This document shows positions 29,052-64,000 of a stretch of DNA of 64,000 bases, in pieces. The notes under the pieces are model-generated. The model had not been told where the DNA came from and ran no database searches. It was given only the letters and a program-made list of their open reading frames with translations. A program made the translations under genes and the position numbers. Positions within the stretch are counted from its first letter, which is position 1; each line of letters begins with the position of its first letter. The stretch is from Octopus sinensis (lineage: Eukaryota): assembly GCF_006345805.1 (NCBI RefSeq), contig NC_043015.1, positions 23,560,001 through 23,624,000 on the forward strand, in the 5' to 3' direction.

Positions 29052-29706
29052 AATTTAACAATTAAGGATAACTTCTTAATAAGGAATCTTAACAAGAAAT
29101 TATCTGCTTTGCTTTGAAGAACTGCATTAGTTATGATTAGTGTAATTTTGGTAGTAATGACTTATGTCCCTCTTAGTGTGAGGCATTTATGTGTAATAAT
29201 GCCCTCTATACAATATAACTATAATTAATATGTTCAATGGGAAAAGAATTATTTTCGAATTCTTTTCTCTTATGAGGTTTTTCACGCTAACTACCTGATA
29301 ATTTCTTGTTAAGATTCCTTATTAAGAAGTTATCCTTAATTGTTAAATTCTTTCCGAAATACTTTTCCTATCCGACATGCAGTTCGAAAAAGCCCGCCAT
29401 TTACCGAATATATGATTTATAAACATTTCCATGTGCTTCGCCGGAGTGAATAGATATCTGTTCGTCTTCGCCAGGTAAAGTTGGTCGTTTATCTATGATG
29501 TGTTCAGAATCAGTTCTGCTGATGATCATAGACATAATTTTATACGTTAAATGTAAAATCACGGGTGATACAGAACTAAATTCATTTTTTAAATGTCTTG
29601 CTTTGAAGAACTGCATTAGGTATGATTAGAGTAATTTTGGTAGTAATGACTTATGTCCCTCTTAGTGTGAGGCATTTATGTGTAATACTGCCCTCTATAC
29701 AATATA
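29052..29706 (+). mobile_element. Second retrozyme/PLE-like element (period 489 bp) with a 53-bp inverted 5' segment
   Basis: Direct repeats of about 108 bp at 29109-29217 / 29598-29706. Segment 29052-29104 is the exact reverse complement of 29297-29349. Flanked by (TA)n. Confidence 0.85.
29512..29577 (+). ncRNA. Degenerate type I hammerhead motif
   Basis: AGUUCUG-CUGAUGA-...-AAAA-UCACGGGUGA-UA-CAGAACU. Stem I is a perfect 7 bp and stem III is near-palindromic, but GAAA reads AAAA and stem II is weak. Confidence 0.6.
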
Positions 29707-30173: not shown

Positions 30174-31934
30174 TCTCTCTATATATAAAACTGAGAATGT
30201 GTGTCTGTATGTCTGTCTGTCTGTGTGTTTCCCTAAAACTTGAGAACTACGCAACCAATTTCATTTAAATTTTACACATGCCTTACTTAGGGTCCGGAGA
30301 GTGTCATCGGCAAAACTCTTTTTTAACTTTTTGCCTAGGGCGAGCCCACGGCAATATAATATCTTCTCCACTACGATTCCCTAAAACTTGAGAACTACAC
30401 AACCAATTCTATTCAAAGTTTACACATGCCTTACTTAGGGTCCATGTAGTTTCATGGGCAAAGAAAATTTTCAACTTCTTGCCTAGGGCGAGCCCATAGC
30501 AATATCATATCTTCTCCACTATTTCAGAACAATGTGTTAAAAGTGAAACAAAAACATTTCTCTATTTTATGTCAGATACTTTCACTTTAACAATAAAAAT
30601 TAGAGATAATAATAACAATTGAATTATATGTAGTAAGTAATAATTAAAATCAAACTAAAGTATAATATAATCGTAACATAACAAAAGTAAAATTAGCAAT
30701 TGGTATAAAATTGCATCAATGACTTGAACTTGAATAAGTGGTTTCACATGAATGGGAATAAATTAAAAATAAAATTAGTGTGCAGAAATGGAATAGTCCA
30801 GAGGGAGCTGTGCACATACCGTTTACCACGGCTTTTACATTAGATTATCTGCCAATTGGCTAGCATTAAGTATCTATATGAAGTTTAGCTGTATGTAATG
30901 TCTGTTTTCTCGAACAGCTGCTTCTACTGAGTACTGTTGTTGGTTTATTTCTTATACATAAAGGACTATAGCTTCAACAGAGTACTGCTTTTTGATTCAC
31001 CGTTAGGTTTGTTGTTATGATTATTACTGTTTAACTATTGTTATCATGTTTGTTGGTTCCTCGTAAGGGAAACGTTGTTGTGTTGCATTTGTTAAATAAT
31101 TGTAAACTGTAACCCTCCCTCTTTGGGAGAAGGAGCTTTGGTTATTGTTTAAAAATTGAATTGTGTCCCTGTTTGGGGAAATTGACAATATTTTCGCCGC
31201 TTATACGGAAGCATTTTTGTTAGAATACCTTCGATAGAAGAAAGTCCAAAAATGAATTTTGCTGCAGCCGTCGGCGGGCGCGAAATCATTAAAATTAAAA
31301 TGGAAGAAATACAAACCTATTTCGGATTGATCACCGACAAAGCCGGTGAATCTAGGATAATACCACCAAACGAAATAAAAAATTAAATTAAAGAAAAGAC
31401 TATTGTCTATAACGTATACAAAGTAGAGAAAAAGAAAAGATTTGAACACCTGGAGGAAAGCACCATCGAAGAGTGACTTGGTGCGACTATGAAAGATATC
31501 TAACCAGAGGCGGTAAATTCGCCACAATAGAAGCAAGGTCCGAGTCAACAGAGTGTGCAAGGGAGTACTTGACTCGAACCTTGCAAAGTGGAAATATTTT
31601 ACTTTTACCTTTGTATCTGGAATGTAGGGCGTCTCGGATAAAAATTTAAACTGTCCCCCCAGAAGTAGAGTTAGGCTGGATTGTAGCCACACTTCTATAC
31701 AAAAGGGAGGACAAGATACCATTGAATGAAATTGCAAGAGACGGGCCTACAATTCCAGTCTGTTATATATTATGAGTATTGTTATCACTAGCGATATCAA
31801 GATATAACTTTGTATTTTGTATTTTATGTGTAGATGTATATATATAGATGTACATATAATATGTACACATATATATATACACATATATACATGCACTAGT
31901 ACTATGACCCGGCAACGACGGGTCATAATGCTAG
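30174..31934 (+). mobile_element. Non-autonomous Helitron
   Basis: 5' end A|TCTCTCTATATATAAA. 3' hairpin tatgacccg-gcaacga-cgggtcata (31903-31927) followed by CTAG|T at 31931-31935. Internal 148-bp tandem duplication at 30231/30379. Confidence 0.8.
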
Positions 31935-33217: not shown

Positions 33218-33299
33218 ATTCTACACGTGTTTCGAAAGGCACAAATTACCAAAATCCGATTGAATAATGGGACCATATTGTGTCTTTCTCTTCAGGAAA
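33218..33299 (-). ncRNA. Minimal type I hammerhead ribozyme (left arm)
   Basis: UUC-CUGAAGA-GAAAGaCACAA...UUGUGcCUUUC-GAAAC-ACGU-GUA-GAA. The core is intact, the loop III is palindromic and stem I is only 3 bp. Confidence 0.75.
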
Positions 33300-34558
33300 A
33301 AAAGGAAATCCGCTGGAAAAACAAAAACAGAACAGAGGCTGAGCAAAAACAAATCGAACTATGCTCCTAAGAGCCCATGGCGAAACTGTTTATCAGTGTA
33401 TGTTGAGAACCGGTGGCTGAAGAATTCAACGGGTCAGGCATCGGTCAATCATGTGGGTGAGGGTGTATAGATGTTCTTTGTGACCGAGCATAAAGTTCTG
33501 ACTATTTAAGGAATATTGGATGTTTTATAAGGGGCGAGAAAAAATCTACTTAGAGACGTGTGTGTGTATACTGTTCTATATATGTGTGTGTTGGCGTAGG
33601 GGTAGAAAACATTTTTTGTACGTGTGTGCGTTTGATCGTTCGGCTGTCAGTGGCTACTGCCGTGATAACCGTTGGGTGGCAGAAAGAAAAAAAATATATA
33701 TATATTATGTTTTATGTGTGTGTGTTCATCTAAGCCTGCCTTGTCAAGGAACACCCCCCGCTGTGAAAAACCAGCCCCGTTTGTCTTACAGGAGTAATTC
33801 CCCTTGCAGTGGTTAATCGTAGATATCTTAAAGGCTATTTCAGAATTTGTTACCAAGGGCTATGGGTGCCGGTATTATTTATAAACGGTTGGTAAACGGG
33901 CTCTTACAGTCGGCTTTTCGATGCCCCCATTGGCGGCGTTACACTTATCTGGCTTTTAAATAGCGTTTATAAATAATACCGGCACCCATAGCCCTTGGTA
34001 ACAAATTCTGAAATAGCCTTTAAGATATCTACGATTAACCACTGCAAGGGGATTACTCCTGTAAGACAAACGGGGCTTGGTTTTTTCACAGCGGGGGGTT
34101 TCCTTGACAAGGCGGCGCTTAGATGAACCACACACACATAAAACATAATATATATATATATATTTTCTTTCTGCCACCCAACGGTTATCACGGCAGTAGC
34201 CACTGACAGCCGAACGATCAAACGCACACACGTACACAAAAAGTGTTTTCTACCCCTACGCCAACACACACATATATAGAACAGTAACACACACACACGT
34301 CTCTAAGTAGATTTTTTCTCGCCCCTTATAAAACATCCAATATTCCTTAAATAGTCAGAACTTTATGCTCGGTCACAAAGAACATCTATACACCCTCACC
34401 CACATGATTGACCGATGCCTGACCCGTTGAATTCTTCAGCCACCGGTTCTCAACATACACTGATAAACAGTTTCGCCATGGGCTCTTAGGAGCATAGTTC
34501 GATTTGTTTTTGCTCAGCCTCTGTTCTGTTTTTGTTTTTCCAGCGGATTTCCTTTTTT

Positions 34559-36489: not shown

Positions 36490-37157
36490 TCATTTCATCC
36501 TGTTGGTTGATGTATGCATCCTTTGTAATTGACGTACCAAGTCTCATGAAGCTGTAGGGGATGACACCAGGGCTGGACCTCCAAACAGACACTATTACCA
36601 TTTTCGGTGAATATTCCTTTTTGGATTGTGCTTTGGCGCGTCCTTCCTATCCAGCCATCATGCAGAACGCTTGCTATTGTTGAAAAGAATCTATTTTTCC
36701 TCTCACGTCAAAATACGATGTAAAAACTGTTCGTGTTTATGCCGTGACAGCAAAGAACAGCAAGTTTCAAGATGACGTGTAATTTGATGCTCTTTCAGTT
36801 CGTGTGGTACCCATTTATCTAGCTTATTTACCTTGCCAATATTTATTTCAGGTGGTCCAATACATTTGGAGTCGAATCATGAAACCTTGCAGCTAACTCA
36901 CCCGTAGTTTTAGATGTATCCGCTTCTAATACAGCTTCCAGCTCATTATTATCCATCTTTGATTCAGGTCTACAACGGAGCTGATTTTCAAGAGGAAAGT
37001 CACCAGACCAGAACTTCTCAAACCATCGTCGTACAGTGCGCTCACTCGCCACATCTTCACCACCAAACACCTCGTTGATGTTTCGAGCTGTCTGGGATGC
37101 ATTGCTTCCACGACGGAGTACATGTTCATAAACATCACGAATTTTTTATCTATCCAT
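36490..37157 (-). pseudogene. Decayed mariner transposase
   Basis: SERTVRRWFEKFWSGDF HTH segment and KWVPHEL motif, with multiple stops. The C-terminal half and TIRs are not evident. Confidence 0.85.
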
Positions 37158-40515: not shown

Positions 40516-41784
40516 CGAGGGGCGTTCAATAAGTAATGCCTCTGACCCACTTCCCATAGCAGTAGAGCAACAAAACTTGGCACAGGTATTAGTCTTTTTC
40601 TACATAGGAACAACCCAGAGGTACGCATTTCTCCCATCGTTTGATGCAGTTCTGGAGACCGTTTTCGTAGAAGACCCCAACTTGGTCCTCCAACCACGAC
40701 GTGACTTCAGAAATCAAGGCTGCATCATCTGGGAAACGCTTTCCTTTCAAAAACAACTTCATGGCTGGGAAGAGGTGAAAATCACAGGGTGCAAGGTCAG
40801 GAGAGTAGGGGGATGGGGGAAGAGTTCATAGCCGCACGCCTGTGCTTCTGATCTGGCGACACGCGAGTTGTGGACCGGAGCGTTGTCCTGCAGGAGGAGG
40901 ATGCCTTTGCTGATCTTGCCCCGCCTCTTGGTTTCGATAGCTTCTCTTAATTTCCTCAAAAGTGAAACATGATAGGCTACTGTAATTGTGGTACCCTTTG
41001 CCAGGAAATCTGTCATCACTACTCCGTCCTGGTCCCAGAAGAATGTGAGCATGACCTTGCCAGCGGAGGGCTGCACCCTTGCCTTCTTTGGAGGAGGTGA
41101 GTCATGGTGCTTCCACTGCATTGACTGGGCTTTGGTCTCTGGATCATAGTGATGGACCTAGGTCTCATCCTGTGTAATCAGTCTTTTGAAAAATTTTGAC
41201 TCATCTTCTTGGCACATCCCTAAATTCTTGCGTTCTTGCTTCTGGAAGAAATATGTGAGCAACCTGGAAATCCATCTGGCAGACACCTTTTGCATATGCA
41301 AATGGTCATGAATGATAGTTTCCACAGACCCGGTACTAATCTTGACTTCATGGGCTTTATGGCGAATAGTTATGCGTCGATCTTCCAAAATGGCAGCCTC
41401 AACTTGACGGACAGATGCCTCATCAATGGCAGAAGGGGTGCGACCAGATCTGGGAGCTGTTTCCACAGAGTTCCGACCATGTTTGAATTCACGATGCCAG
41501 CGTTTTACAAGGTCATATGATGGGGCATCATCACCATAAGTTACTTTCATTTCATTAAAAGTCTCCTGTGGTGTGCGTCATTTCAAATACAAAAACCGGA
41601 TCACTGCTCGACACTCAACATGCTCCATTTCCCACTTGACTCATTTCAAACACCTGTAAATCAGAAACCACAACTGTAATTTGCCACCTAATCTATAGAG
41701 ATATCAATAATTTCACATGCAAATTTTCAGCTAGATCACACAAAGGCAAGTGGGTCAGAGGCATTACTTATTGAACGCCCCTCG
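40516..41784 (-). mobile_element. Full-length mariner transposon (DD34D), 1269 bp
   Basis: Perfect 37-bp TIRs cgaggggcgttcaataagtaatgcctctgacccactt (40516-40552 / 41748-41784), with TA on both sides. Confidence 0.97.
40589..41628 (-). pseudogene. Mariner transposase, disrupted
   Basis: MEHVECRAVIRFLYLK*..., ITQDET, LLQDNAPVH, and PYSPDLAPCDF after a frameshift, ending RWEKCV..YVEKD*. At least two stops plus indels. Confidence 0.95.
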
Positions 41785-43948: not shown

Positions 43949-44279
43949 CAGTTCTATATTTAAGTGATTAAGTATTATTTAAATTATTTACATTATTTGC
44001 ATTTGACGGATATTTGTCCCCATATGGCGTAGTGGTTAAGAGCACGGGCTACTAACCCCAAAATTCTGAGTTCGATTCCAGACAGTGACCTGAATAATAA
44101 TGATAATAATAATAATAATAATAATAATAATATCGAAAAATACCTTAGGAATAACAGAATTAAAGCCCAGGTTCGAAATTTCACCAAGACACCTGATGAA
44201 GGCTGGAGGGTATATCAGCCCGAACGTTGTGTTAACAACAAACAAGAAGAGGACAAATATCCTTCAAATGTAAATAATT
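43949..44279 (+). mobile_element. tRNA-headed SINE with a hammerhead tail and an inverted 5' copy of its 3' end
   Basis: A box TGGCGTAGTGG (44025), B box GAGTTCGATTCC (44068), (TAA)n, then CTGATGA at 44193. atttgacggatatttgtcc (44001-44019) is inverted relative to ggacaaatatccttcaaat (44251-44269). Confidence 0.8.
44188..44233 (+). ncRNA. Minimal hammerhead motif in the SINE tail (variant CGAAC for GAAAC)
   Basis: GACAC-CUGAUGA-A-GGCUG...CAGCC-CGAAC-GUU-GUGUU. Confidence 0.6.
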
Positions 44280-44638
44280 ACGAGTATATTTTAAAATTTG
44301 AGATTACATAGACAGTATTTTCAGTAGGATATGAGCAGTTCCTATGAGCACTATCTTTTGAATTTTGGGGGTCTCCTGGTATCTGGGCTAGGTAGCATTC
44401 AGGCCCTTTCGCTATCATTCGTAGGATACCTATAACAAATGGTATTATTTTAGTCTTGATGTTCCAGGTTTTGCCAATTTCTATTTCAAGATCTTTATAC
44501 TTGCTCAGTTTTTGGTAGGTCTTGACAGATACATGTCGATTGAGACAGTCATATCAATGAGGAAGCATGATTTTTGTCTGAAGTCTTTCGGTATATCTAT
44601 TAGGCATGCTTTTGTCTAAAGCCTTTCAATATAATGCC

Positions 44639-44692
<54 letters not shown>

Positions 44693-51870: not shown

Positions 51871-52314
51871 TTGTTTCTTGTTATTTTTGCTATCATCTTA
51901 AAGCACTGAAAAACAGCGAGGGTGCATAATCAAAATTACGTCGGATCAAATGCTGGGCGGTATTTCTTTCAGCTTTCTACGTTCGGAGTTCAAATACTTC
52001 TACGATTACATTTGCATTTCATATTTCCAAGATCAATAAAATATAATGCAAGTGAAGTATTGCAGCAGGTGTAATAGATTTTCCCCCTTCCCCCACCCTA
52101 CAAGTGCTCGCCTTGTGCTGAAATTTGAAACCCTCATACTAAAGCATGAAAAATCGGCGAACTAGCAAAGATTTTAGAGATTCACAAAACATTTTTTGCG
52201 GTATTTTCAGGCGCTTACCGATCTGAGTTCTAATCTGTCACGAATAACTTTGTCACTATGCTTTAGATCACATAATAATACTCCTCAAGAACCAGTGTTG
52301 ATGGAATAGATTTA

Positions 52315-52651
52315 TACATAAAGCGCAACGGGCCACGATCGTGGCCGTCAGGCACAGGTCGACAGACCACGATCGTGGCCCAGATAGATGCATTTAATTT
52401 ATGGGCGTCTGTTGGGGTCTAATGACACTCAAACACTCCGATACCCCCCAGAATGCAAGAGGACTAATAGTTCTACTAATGCCTTTTCAGATGAGGTAAA
52501 ATTTGCCGCCATTATATACCAAGAAGATATTTTAACTATTTTTGTGTTTTTTTTAATGTGTGCATGGTAATCTCATTTTCATAAAAGTTATCAGCATAAA
52601 AGTTATCTATCATAAAAGTTATCAGCAGTGCAAATTACAGCGCTTTATGGG
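52315..52651. mobile_element. piggyBac-like MITE
   Basis: Right end gcgctttatGGG-TTAA; left end ttta-tacataaagcgc (decayed). Two copies of the palindrome ccacgatcgtgg lie near the left end. Confidence 0.6.
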
Positions 52652-52782: not shown

Positions 52783-52986
52783 AAGGCACAAGGCCGGAAA
52801 TTTGAGGGAAGGGGACTAGTTGATTTCATCGACCCCAGTGTTTCACTGGCACTTAATTCATCGACCCCGAAGGGATGAACGACAAAGTCGACCTCGGCGG
52901 ATTTTGAACTCATAACTTAAAGACATATGAAAACCTGCTAAGTATTTTGCCTGGCACGCTAACGATTCTGCCCGCTCACCGCCTTT
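52783..52986 (-). mobile_element. Family C SINE
   Basis: ggcacaaggccggaaattt...aaagtcgacctcggcggattttgaactc...gctaacgattctgcccgctcaccgcctt. Confidence 0.85.
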
Positions 52987-53135
52987 ACGAAGCTTTTCAT
53001 AATGAAAATGAAAACCAAGCTATTTTGAATCTTGGATGAAACATATAATGCCGCTAAATTATACTGAATTCTAAATGGTGACAGTCATTGGCTTGTGTCC
53101 ATGATGGAGCGTCACTTTCAAGTAAACAAATATAT

Positions 53136-53525
53136 ATTCAGATGGCTAGTACACTTTACGTTGTCGAGCGGTTACTGTTTACATCTCGTTCGGAGATTTA
53201 TTAATGCTTTCAGACAGTTTTTCTAAATCAGTGACAGTGGTTGCTGGGAAAAACATTAAATAGATATTCGCAAACAGGTCTCTCCAATCGAAAATCGGTG
53301 ATTACCGTACGTTGACGAGAGGCAAATACCTCGAAACTATAGTCCGTATGTATCACTTAGGTTTTCGAATATCCCTTTGCGAATATCAGAAGGGCACCGA
53401 AAGTGTGTCTAAAGCCAGCTGGAGATGATGATCTCCTGGGGCTATAAGCTTCAGTAACACCCACTCCCAGTGGCTAACCACATTCAGATGGCTAGTACAC
53501 TTTACGTTATTCTCGTTCGGAGATT
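53136..53525 (+). mobile_element. Non-LTR retrozyme-like unit, period 346 bp
   Basis: attcagatggctagtacactttacgtt at 53136 and 53482, each followed by tctcgttcggagatt. One hammerhead motif lies between the repeats. Confidence 0.75.
53306..53350 (+). ncRNA. Minimal type I hammerhead ribozyme (C3U variant)
   Basis: CGUACG-UUGACGA-GAGG-caaaua-CCUC-GAAAC-UAUA-GUC-CGUAUG. Confidence 0.8.
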
Positions 53526-54062
53526 AATTATATACTGTTTGTTCTTATATTTATGATGGTAGAAAAATTATCAATCAGTATTGATGGAAATGTCAGACAA
53601 GGAGGAGTTTCCATTTTCAAGAGGAATTCCCAAAGAGAGTTGCTAAGTTGAATATCAGGAAGATGTTCTGTAAATTGCACATCAAAGCACCTGCCGCATT
53701 ATTCGATAGATCGGGCACTACACATACAAAAGTTTAAAGTTCCTACACGCATTAACAATAATGTTTGCTTGAAGCTCTTTATCGGGCGTGGGCGCTCCAT
53801 GTACTTTTAGATTTTCAATTACGACAGATTACTAAGGAGAGTGTTATAGCACTAAGACACACACACACACACGCACGCACACACACACAAACACACACAA
53901 ACACACACACACACAAACTTACATACACACACATGCATATATATACACGTATGCAGAGATAAAGACATTAGGTAGATTCATACATATTTAGATAGACAGA
54001 TAGATAGATAAATAGATAGATAGCTGGATAGATAGACAGAGAGCGAGAGTGATAATATATAT

Positions 54063-63307: not shown

Positions 63308-63458
63308 TTACATTATTTACGTTATTTACATTTGACGGATATTTGTCCTCGTCTTGTTTGTTGTCAACACAACGTTTCGGCTGATAAACCCTCTCGCCTT
63401 CATCAAGTGTTGTGGGGAAATATTGAACCTGGGTTCTCATTCCTAAGGTATCATTCGA

Positions 63459-63528
<70 letters not shown>
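63308..63528 (-). mobile_element. Second copy (3' half) of the hammerhead-tailed SINE
   Basis: Reverse complement of 44125-44279. HHR motif at 63366-63411: AACAC-UUGAUGA-A-GGC..GCC-GAAAC-GUU-GUGUU. Confidence 0.8.
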
Positions 63529-63529
<1 letters not shown>

Positions 63530-64000
63530 TATGTTTGACTTTTGCTTTATGTCTGTACAAGCTGGCTCCAAGTCTCACCCAGAGAGCTCAAGAGACAACA
63601 GGTTGGAAGTTCACGTTGTTGTTATGCTTAAAGTGCCATATATTTGGGTTTCTTTTTTGGTGTTGTACTAGTGAATGTCTAATACATAAATTTTAAAAAA
63701 AGTTTGTTTTAAACTTTGGGATTACATAGAGAGAATTTTGCGTAGGATATGAGCAGTTCCCATGAGCACTATCTTTTGAATTTCTGCCATTTTGGGGTTT
63801 CCTGGTATCTGAGTTAGGTAGCAATCAGCCCCTTTCGCTATCATTCTCAGGGCACCTATGGTATTGTTTTAGTCTTCAGGTTCCACATTTTGCTGATTTC
63901 TGTTTCAAGATCTTTATATTTGCTCAGTTTTTGGTAGGTCTTGACAGATACGTTCATATCGATTGGGACAGTCATATCAATGAGGAGGCATGTTCTTTGT
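63529..64000 (-). mobile_element. R4/Dong-type LINE 3' end (runs off the window)
   Basis: TCLLIDMTVPIDMNVSVKTYQKLSKYKDLETEISKMWNLKTK..IQKIVLMGTAHILRKILSM*. The 3' UTR ends at (TAA)n. Confidence 0.9.

What the first reader, a model, noticed from the sequence alone, without database searches (positions are those of the whole stretch)
53136..53525. Compact 346-nt retrozyme-like monomer
Seen: a 45-nt minimal HHR (6-bp stem I, 4-bp stem II, ACUAUAGU palindrome, GUC) lies between terminal direct repeats spaced 346 bp apart, with no ORF. Known: this size and organisation fit metazoan non-LTR retrozymes. The C3U change probably lowers the activity of this copy (inference).
Basis: partly seen in the sequence, partly recalled or inferred. 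Interest (0 to 1): 0.75.

Follow-up and report, generated by a model that had tools for sequence, protein, structure and literature searches.

The report
Solo animal retrozyme copy, probably inactive
A roughly 390-base stretch of animal DNA carries a self-cutting hammerhead ribozyme inside a slightly more-than-one-unit repeat, most likely a single, stranded copy of a known kind of small mobile element (a retrozyme), so it is real but largely ordinary.

Summary
Observation confirmed. A type I hammerhead (53306-53350, +; Rfam 28.3 bits, E 2e-4, below the cut-off of 34) sits in a non-coding 346-nt unit whose start recurs at its end: 27/27 nt at spacing 346, then 19/20 nt at spacing 327, because the second copy has 2 nt in place of 21. 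The ribozyme has the canonical animal form (6/4-bp helices, loop 2 equal to the Rfam consensus), not the Penelope 'minimal' form. The unit folds as a branched rod (z -3.7 to -4.6), and the repeat pairs with the unit's interior (p about 0.01), so it probably belongs to the element. Best reading: a solo 1.1-mer of a metazoan non-LTR retrozyme (non-autonomous Penelope-like derivative), written in by reverse transcription past one unit, perhaps at a TATATA target. With one ribozyme and a U3-G8 core this copy is probably a dead end. Tandem relatives, the defining feature, are absent from the window and could not be tested genome-wide (no animal genomes on hand). A second, unrelated Penelope-type ribozyme family lies in the same window. 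New member of a known kind; low to moderate interest.

The parts
53136..53481 (+). 346-nt monomer unit, 43% GC, non-coding, highly self-paired
   Evidence: repeat spacing; linear MFE -106.2 kcal/mol, z -4.12, 0 of 100 shuffles as low; circular -100.6, z -3.65
53136..53162 (+). repeat block A, 5' copy (27 nt); pairs with the unit's interior
   Evidence: duplex with interior -23.3 kcal/mol, p 0.011 against 2000 shuffles, 4 of 603 window 27-mers as low
53163..53183 (+). segment B, 21 nt, a side hairpin in the predicted fold; absent from the 3' copy
53184..53203 (+). repeat block C, 5' copy (first 15 nt exact, 19/20 overall)
53263..53387 (+). long rod extending helix I, with a perfect 12-bp inverted repeat (53263-53274 / 53376-53387); ribozyme at its tip
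   Evidence: fold of 53256-53395: -41.9 kcal/mol, z -4.33, 0 of 200 shuffles
53306..53350 (+). canonical-type type I hammerhead ribozyme; U at core position 3 (53312); helix II 53319-53332; palindromic helix III 53336-53343; predicted cut between 53344 and 53345
   Evidence: Rfam RF00163 28.3 bits; descriptor and shuffles; positions
53397..53425 (+). interior stretch complementary to block A
   Evidence: also the weak reverse-strand self-hit 53507-53398, E 0.098
53482..53508 (+). repeat block A, 3' copy (27/27 identical): start of the partial second unit ('tail')
53509..53510 (+). 2-nt filler standing where the 5' copy has segment B (net loss 19 nt)
53511..53530 (+). repeat block C, 3' copy; the element ends at about 53525-53530
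   Evidence: sequence beyond shows no similarity to the unit, p 0.40
53131..53136 (+). candidate target-site duplication TATATA, left copy (overlaps the first base of block A)
   Evidence: weak, chosen after seeing the data
53529..53534 (+). candidate target-site duplication TATATA, right copy
   Evidence: any shared 6-mer between two 14-nt windows 400 nt apart occurs in 2.5% of 20,000 random pairs

Best explanation
A dispersed solo insertion (one unit plus a 44-49-nt tail) of a metazoan non-LTR retrozyme, that is a small non-coding retroelement probably derived from and moved by Penelope-like elements (PLEs). Inferred life cycle, from the published model: tandem parent copies elsewhere are transcribed by read-through, the hammerheads cut once per unit (helped by pairing two palindromic helices III), a host ligase closes the ~346-nt circle, and a PLE reverse transcriptase/endonuclease nicks AT-rich DNA, starts inside the RNA and copies slightly more than one unit. 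That leaves the unit's start repeated at its end. The 19-nt net loss near the 3' end is either a jump over a hairpin just after initiation, a length variant of the family, or a later deletion. This copy is probably a dead end: one ribozyme only, so no monomer can be released, and a U3-G8 core. Shown: the ribozyme motif, the two-block terminal repeat, no coding capacity, the predicted fold, single copy in 64 kb. Inferred: tandem parents, circular RNA, PLE as helper, target duplication, reduced activity.
For: Ribozyme architecture is the canonical metazoan type I found in retrozymes, with loop 2 identical to the Rfam consensus and no extra nucleotide after A9, which PLE minimal ribozymes carry. 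Size and GC match. In both possible circles helices I and II form with probability 0.78-1.0, as reported for most metazoan retrozymes. The minimum-energy fold of two copies of 53296-53360 is exactly the double hammerhead, -38.6 versus -34.8 kcal/mol for two monomers. Block A pairs with the interior (p 0.011), so the repeat is probably element sequence, as expected of a more-than-unit-length copy (model in PMC7761336). PLE insertions carry 30-40-bp tails and RT starts inside the RNA after nicking AT-rich DNA (PMC8557442, PMC11167929). Solo monomers are common in retrozyme families (bioRxiv 10.64898/2026.07.22.740005). Coral retrozymes show a typical 20-nt indel, like the 19-nt difference here. 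The same window holds a separate family with PLE-type minimal ribozymes, so PLE-type sequences are present in this genome. The repeat blocks are 42/42 identical over their exact parts, against 66-83% between copies of neighbouring repeats, so the insertion is comparatively young.
Against: No tandem, permuted or dispersed relative in the window (blastn word 7 and nhmmer --max); by the criterion of the 2026 preprint (two consecutive units with ribozymes) this locus is not an active retrozyme. Rfam score is under the gathering cut-off. The fold is strong but not unique: 7 of 106 microsatellite-free 346-nt windows reach z <= -3.5 and 4 of 106 reach -100 kcal/mol (10 shuffles each); the minus strand also folds (z -2.76). 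The tail (44-49 nt, spanning 63-68 nt of template) is longer than the 30-40 bp quoted for PLEs. The A-interior pairing (p 0.011) and the TATATA duplication (p about 0.025) are modest and were tested after inspection. No RT/GIY-YIG frame of 100 aa or more was evident in the window's ORF list (by inspection, 3 of the 76 scanned in Pfam). That the ribozyme needs a dimer is not certain: invertebrate retrozyme ribozymes with 2-bp helix III cleave well as monomers, and the energy model ignores loop-loop contacts.
Confidence: 0.65

Rival explanations
1. A solo pseudo-LTR left by a 5'-truncated autonomous Penelope-like element; the terminal repeat is the PLE tail or a partial tandem.
For: PLE pLTRs hold type I ribozymes with palindromic helix III, most genomic copies are truncated singles, and tails are typical. 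Retrozymes and pLTRs are related, so the line is thin. Some animal PLEs have a small palindromic helix III.
Against: The ribozyme lacks the PLE marks (extra nucleotide after A9, long helix II, short helix I), which the window's second family does show. A tail that repeats the 5' end implies a unit of 346 nt, too short for an ORF. No PLE protein similarity in unit frames or in the downstream 118-codon frame (short queries, weak tests).
Confidence: 0.15
2. An orphan piece of a ribozyme-bearing satellite array moved at the DNA level (extrachromosomal circle or gene-conversion repair), with no RNA step for this insertion; the 19-nt difference reflects two unlike neighbours in the parent array.
For: Type I ribozymes occur in satellite arrays of newts, schistosomes and crickets; monomer length variants of about 20 nt exist within one genome. 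A 1.1-mer can be cut from any array.
Against: Does not explain the possible TATATA duplication; dispersed monomers of such families are read by the 2026 preprint as possible offspring of active retrozymes.
Confidence: 0.1
3. The repeat is a long target-site duplication of host DNA around a shorter (~300-nt) SINE-like insert with a ribozyme.
For: Retrozyme target duplications are said to be longer than 4 bp; block A begins with ATT, the motif most cut by an Anolis PLE protein in vitro.
Against: The duplicated span would be 63-68 nt with an internal 21-for-2 exchange; block A pairs with the element's interior; no exact Pol III A or B box in the unit, and no B box even with one mismatch.
Confidence: 0.07
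4. Chance: a ribozyme-like motif and a local duplication that have nothing to do with each other.
For: Score below Rfam's cut-off and a non-consensus core base.
Against: 0 of 200 shuffled windows give the motif; loop 2 equals the family consensus though not asked for; the motif caps a rod with z -4.3; 27-nt repeat versus at most 15 in 1000 shuffles.
Confidence: 0.02

Closest known systems
Metazoan non-LTR retrozymes (coral, mussel, axolotl; PMC7229834, parts 1-4 of 6 read)
   Same: Size 346 nt (mussel 350-390, axolotl 330/350), GC 43%, no ORF, one canonical type I hammerhead per unit with 2-bp helix III and tetraloop, self-paired fold leaving helices I and II formed, ~20-nt length variant.
   Different: Here one unit plus a tail, not a tandem array; core U3-G8 instead of C3-G8; expression, circles and cleavage untested; no sequence comparison with their units was possible (supplement unreadable).
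Solo retrozyme monomers as non-autonomous PLE derivatives (bioRxiv 10.64898/2026.07.22.740005, parts 1-3 of 5 read; supplements closed)
   Same: Dispersed monomers are common and spread evenly along chromosomes; proposed PLE origin and helper.
   Different: That study covers 31 vertebrates, 3 insects and 1 coral, no mollusc; it would not score this locus as active.
Penelope-like element pseudo-LTRs with minimal hammerheads (PMC4209133 parts 1-2 of 4 and supplement passages; PMC11167929 parts 1-2 of 4)
   Same: Type I ribozyme with palindrome for dimer cleavage; terminal tail; AT-rich target.
   Different: Ribozyme here is canonical, not minimal; no ORF start or PLE body found; tail somewhat longer.
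Ribozyme-bearing satellites: Schistosoma Sm-alpha, newt satellite 2, cricket pDo500 (Rfam RF00163; passages of PMC6155905, PMC2837043)
   Same: Same ribozyme class; loop 2 identical to the RF00163 consensus; C3 mutated in a few natural copies (4 of 198 pDo500 sequences).
   Different: Those are arrays; the sequence outside the ribozyme was not compared.

Membership tests
Metazoan non-LTR retrozyme | Canonical type I hammerhead in the unit | tested here: met
   one core deviation (U3), score below Rfam cut-off
Metazoan non-LTR retrozyme | Unit of about 150-450 nt, GC below 45-50% | tested here: met
   346 nt, 42.8% GC against PMC7229834
Metazoan non-LTR retrozyme | No protein-coding region | tested here: met
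   longest internal frame 54 aa, no Pfam hit, no protein homologue for the 2 frames searched
Metazoan non-LTR retrozyme | Highly self-paired predicted circular RNA | tested here: met
   z -3.65 and -4.57 for the two circles; top ~7% of local windows, not unique
Metazoan non-LTR retrozyme | Tandem array of two or more ribozyme-bearing units at this locus (needed to be an active copy) | tested here: not met
   one unit plus 44-49 nt; single ribozyme. Hence filed as a probable solo descendant, not as an active retrozyme locus
Metazoan non-LTR retrozyme | Tandem or multiple relatives elsewhere in the genome | not testable with these tools
   no animal genome collection; none in the 64-kb window; 0 exact matches of the ribozyme motif in prokaryotic genomes
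Metazoan non-LTR retrozyme | Expressed as linear and circular monomer RNA; self-cleaves | not testable with these tools
   needs RNA data or bench work
PLE pseudo-LTR with minimal hammerhead | [quoted passage not shown] | tested here: not met
   positions against the consensus in PMC4209133
PLE pseudo-LTR with minimal hammerhead | Joined to an RT plus GIY-YIG reading frame | tested here: inconclusive
   none found next to the unit, but truncated copies lack it and queries were short
PLE pseudo-LTR with minimal hammerhead | 30-40-bp tail and AT-rich or (TA)n target | tested here: inconclusive
   44-49-nt terminal repeat and TATATA at both junctions; one locus only
tRNA-derived SINE with ribozyme | Internal Pol III A and B boxes | tested here: not met
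   no exact A or B box; 4 one-mismatch A-box hits, no B box
Plant LTR retrozyme | Type III hammerhead in each of two ~350-bp LTRs, PBS and PPT | tested here: not met
   type I, single, 27-nt repeats (definition)

The most novel reading that the evidence does not exclude
A retrozyme family in a lineage where none is reported (the window looks octopod to me, from recalled repeat types, not from any call), whose solo insertions record the mechanism in DNA: a PLE enzyme nicks (TA)n, starts on a circular RNA, jumps a hairpin with 2 untemplated bases and runs more than once round the circle. U3-G8 might be a family-wide, deliberately slow core rather than decay; a 13/15-nt look-alike of the ribozyme's 5' half at 53157-53171 shares that U (p about 0.02, post hoc). 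That would make the still-unproven claim that PLEs move retrozymes through RNA circles testable by counting insertion ends.
Probability: 0.15. Interest if true: 0.5.

Novelty: new member of a known kind. Interest (0 to 1): 0.27.

Why it matters
Modestly. Animal genomes with retrozymes hold tens to more than 100,000 such ribozymes, and solo monomers are described, so one more copy would not surprise a specialist. It adds a probable new family, perhaps in cephalopods, for which my searches found no report (subscription papers and most supplements not covered). Its use is as a probe: the one-unit-plus-tail anatomy is what rolling-circle reverse transcription predicts, and the helper for animal retrozymes is still only inferred, so the ends of many such copies could test PLE-driven mobilisation.

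Tried and rejected
Diverged second monomer downstream or upstream: rejected (53199-53481 vs 53526-53860 p 0.40; monomer vs upstream 346 nt p 0.10). Other copies in the window: none. Relation to the window's second ribozyme family: none (p 0.45). Coding role: 12 frames in or beside the unit without Pfam hit; the 54-aa frame over the ribozyme found nothing among proteins of 96-2000 aa and a 45-aa minus frame nothing among 24-79 aa, both weak tests; the downstream 118-codon frame, read through its stops as X, gave 1 hit among 1.84 billion proteins, E 4e-4 over 35 residues to a repetitive unnamed 406-aa protein (P0002), taken as noise. Conformational switch in which block C blocks the ribozyme core once segment B is lost: rejected, about 20 kcal/mol above the minimum in both circles, probability 0. 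Ancient internal duplication of 151 nt: only the 15-nt look-alike aligns, sequence behind it does not (p 0.33). Pol III promoter: not found. Defining the insertion by an interrupted host repeat: the upstream SINE-like remnant (53082-53129) does not resume after the element. Prokaryotic origin: 0 exact motif matches in 185,579 genomes. Host lineage by protein search with a mariner remnant: 45 hits, the best unnamed, the few with an organism a crab and a fish; it shows only a metazoan-type transposon. Literature rate for U3-G8: not found; the paper on PLE ribozyme dimers by Lunse et al. is not held (title seen only in a reference list). Metagenome and viral contig collections stayed unchecked.

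Full report
Setting. The window is 30-41% GC, full of microsatellites (91 tandem-repeat rows) and interspersed repeats, with mariner transposase remnants: animal non-coding DNA. It looks octopod to me from recalled SINE types; no call established this (one search gave only metazoan-type mariner hits), so the lineage is a lead only.

The observation. A type I hammerhead lies at 53306-53350 on the + strand: helix I 6 bp with one G-U, core UUGACGA, helix II 4 bp closed by CAAAUA, GAA, the palindrome ACUAUAGU, then C17 at 53344. Rfam's Hammerhead_1 model aligns end to end at 28.3 bits (E 1.9e-4), below its cut-off of 34; nothing in the window reaches a gathering score. It is the only locus my canonical descriptor finds on either strand; in 200 shuffled windows the same stem lengths arose 0.01 times per window and never with a palindrome. 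The terminal repeat is exact over 27 nt at spacing 346 (shuffle maximum 15). A second block (19/20) follows at spacing 327, because the 3' copy has 2 nt where the 5' copy has 21. So the element runs about 53136-53530: one 346-nt unit plus a 44-49-nt tail. No coding capacity was found.

What kind of ribozyme. PMC4209133 (parts 1-2 of 4 read; supplement passages) separates canonical metazoan type I ribozymes (helix I 6 bp, helix II 4 bp, short palindromic helix III) from the minimal ones of Penelope-like elements (PLEs; extra nucleotide after A9, longer helix II, little helix III). This one is canonical, and its loop 2 equals the Rfam consensus. Canonical type I ribozymes in animals sit mostly in non-LTR retrozymes (PMC7229834, parts 1-4 of 6 read). 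The window offers its own contrast: a relaxed descriptor found one more motif, at 63365-63412 on the - strand, which has the PLE minimal form and belongs to a ~150-nt family with a second copy at 44131-44277 (83% identical) and an inverted fragment at 43979-44019 (0 such hits with stem I >=6 in 300 shuffles). It is unrelated in sequence to the finding (p 0.45). One of its copies has C3 and the other U3, which shows that C3U arises between copies in this genome.

Fold. The monomer folds at -106.2 kcal/mol (z -4.12, 0 of 100 shuffles); the two possible circles give z -3.65 (346 nt) and -4.57 (327 nt). The ribozyme caps a 125-nt rod (z -4.33), and helices I and II form with probability 0.78-1.0 in both circles. 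Against this, 7 of 106 microsatellite-free windows of the same length reach z <= -3.5 (10 shuffles each), so the fold supports but does not prove. Block A pairs with 53397-53425 at -23.3 kcal/mol (p 0.011; 4 of 603 comparable 27-mers as low), which suggests that the repeat is part of the element. In a single molecule helix III has probability 0 and the cleavage triplet mispairs with the core (0.97); two molecules fold exactly into the double hammerhead, 3.8 kcal/mol below two monomers. The model ignores loop-loop contacts, and coral and mussel ribozymes cleave as monomers (0.8 and 0.1 per min), so dimer dependence is likely, not shown.

Mechanism, best reading (0.65). A solo insertion of a non-LTR retrozyme. 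In the published model read-through transcripts of tandem copies self-cleave, are circularised by a host ligase, and are reverse-transcribed to more than unit length by a helper element, probably a PLE (passages of PMC7761336). A 2026 preprint (10.64898/2026.07.22.740005, parts 1-3 of 5; supplements closed) ties retrozymes to PLE pseudo-LTRs and finds dispersed monomers common. PLE insertions carry a 30-40-bp tail (PMC8557442 passages), explained by RT starting inside the RNA after a nick in AT-rich DNA (PMC11167929 parts 1-2 of 4). Here the tail repeats the unit's start, and TATATA stands at both junctions (53131-53136, 53529-53534; a shared 6-mer arises in 2.5% of random pairs). Since RT writes the 3' end first, the 21-for-2 exchange 15-20 nt from that end may be an early jump over the hairpin of segment B; a family length variant (coral retrozymes have a typical 20-nt indel) or a later deletion fit too. 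All of this is inference from one locus. The exact parts of the repeats are 42/42 identical, so the insertion is younger than its neighbours (66-83% between copies). The copy is probably inert: one ribozyme cannot cut out a monomer, and U3-G8 replaces a conserved Watson-Crick pair whose natural variants covary to U3-A8 (PMC3088659 passages) and whose single changes C3G or G8C abolish cleavage. I found no measured rate for U3-G8.

Rivals. Solo PLE pseudo-LTR (0.15): disfavoured by the ribozyme type and the short closed unit, but the two classes grade into each other. Satellite orphan moved as DNA (0.10). Long target duplication around a shorter insert (0.07): disfavoured by the A-interior pairing, the two-block structure and the lack of Pol III boxes. 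Chance (0.02).

Membership. It works like a retrozyme and meets the sequence criteria (ribozyme type, size, GC, no ORF, fold). It fails the tandem criterion at this locus, so I file it as a probable solo descendant of a retrozyme family, not as an active retrozyme. Genome-wide copy number and circular RNA could not be tested: no animal DNA or RNA collection was on hand, metagenome and viral contigs stayed unchecked, and a scan of prokaryotic genomes gave 0 matches.

Novelty. Searches for hammerhead with Octopus or cephalopod returned one PLE paper and one twister paper (listing only for the latter); motifs of the unit were in 0 papers and not in the PMC8557442 supplement; the supplement of an O. 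vulgaris repeat annotation (PMC13282606, part 1 of 3 read) does not mention ribozymes though the paper reports PLEs at 6.83% of that genome. The PMC7229834 supplement could not be read and may list related elements. At most this is a new family of a known kind. Interest 0.27.

Noticed in passing
window 44131-44277 (+), 63322-63460 (-), inverted fragment 43979-44019: A second, unrelated ~150-nt dispersed family with a Penelope-type minimal hammerhead (extra A after the core, 6-nt palindrome, no helix III). Both long copies start right after a (TAA)n run; 83% identical; the 44k copy has C3 but a damaged GAAA box, the 63k copy has U3 and an intact box. Probably PLE pseudo-LTR remnants.
   Followed up: partly
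window 53157-53171 vs 53308-53322: 13/15-nt look-alike of the ribozyme's 5' half (end of helix I, core, start of helix II), 151 nt upstream, overlapping the segment missing from the tail; shares U3; p about 0.02 post hoc; flanks do not align. Unexplained.
   Followed up: partly
window 33298-34558: 1.26-kb element with perfect 270-bp terminal inverted repeats and 721 nt between them; likely a young non-autonomous DNA transposon.
   Followed up: no
window 40759-41577 (-) and 36843-37145 (-): Broken mariner transposase remnants (Pfam Transposase_1 E 1e-22, HTH_48); closest proteins 83-92% identical, unnamed.
   Followed up: partly
window 63461-64000 (-) and about 44290-44680: 3' ends of what looks like a non-LTR retrotransposon with a (TAA)n tail (type recalled, no Pfam hit for the two short frames at 63k), next to the PLE-type fragments.
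   Followed up: no
window 53496-53849 (+): Flank just downstream: a 118-codon frame with two internal stops, unique in the window; no credible protein match.
   Followed up: yes
window 29057-29350, 31487-31832, 52247-52592: Other strongly folding windows (z -8.9, -6.2, -5.8); the first is a ~290-nt stretch with long terminal inverted repeats, MITE-like; the third includes an imperfect palindrome at 52330-52381.
   Followed up: no
window 53082-53129 and 52784-52987: Old SINE-like remnants just upstream of the element (70-79% identical to other copies in the window).
   Followed up: partly
window 30229-30521: Two tandem copies of a 148-nt unit, 85% matches; no hammerhead motif there by descriptor.
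   Followed up: no
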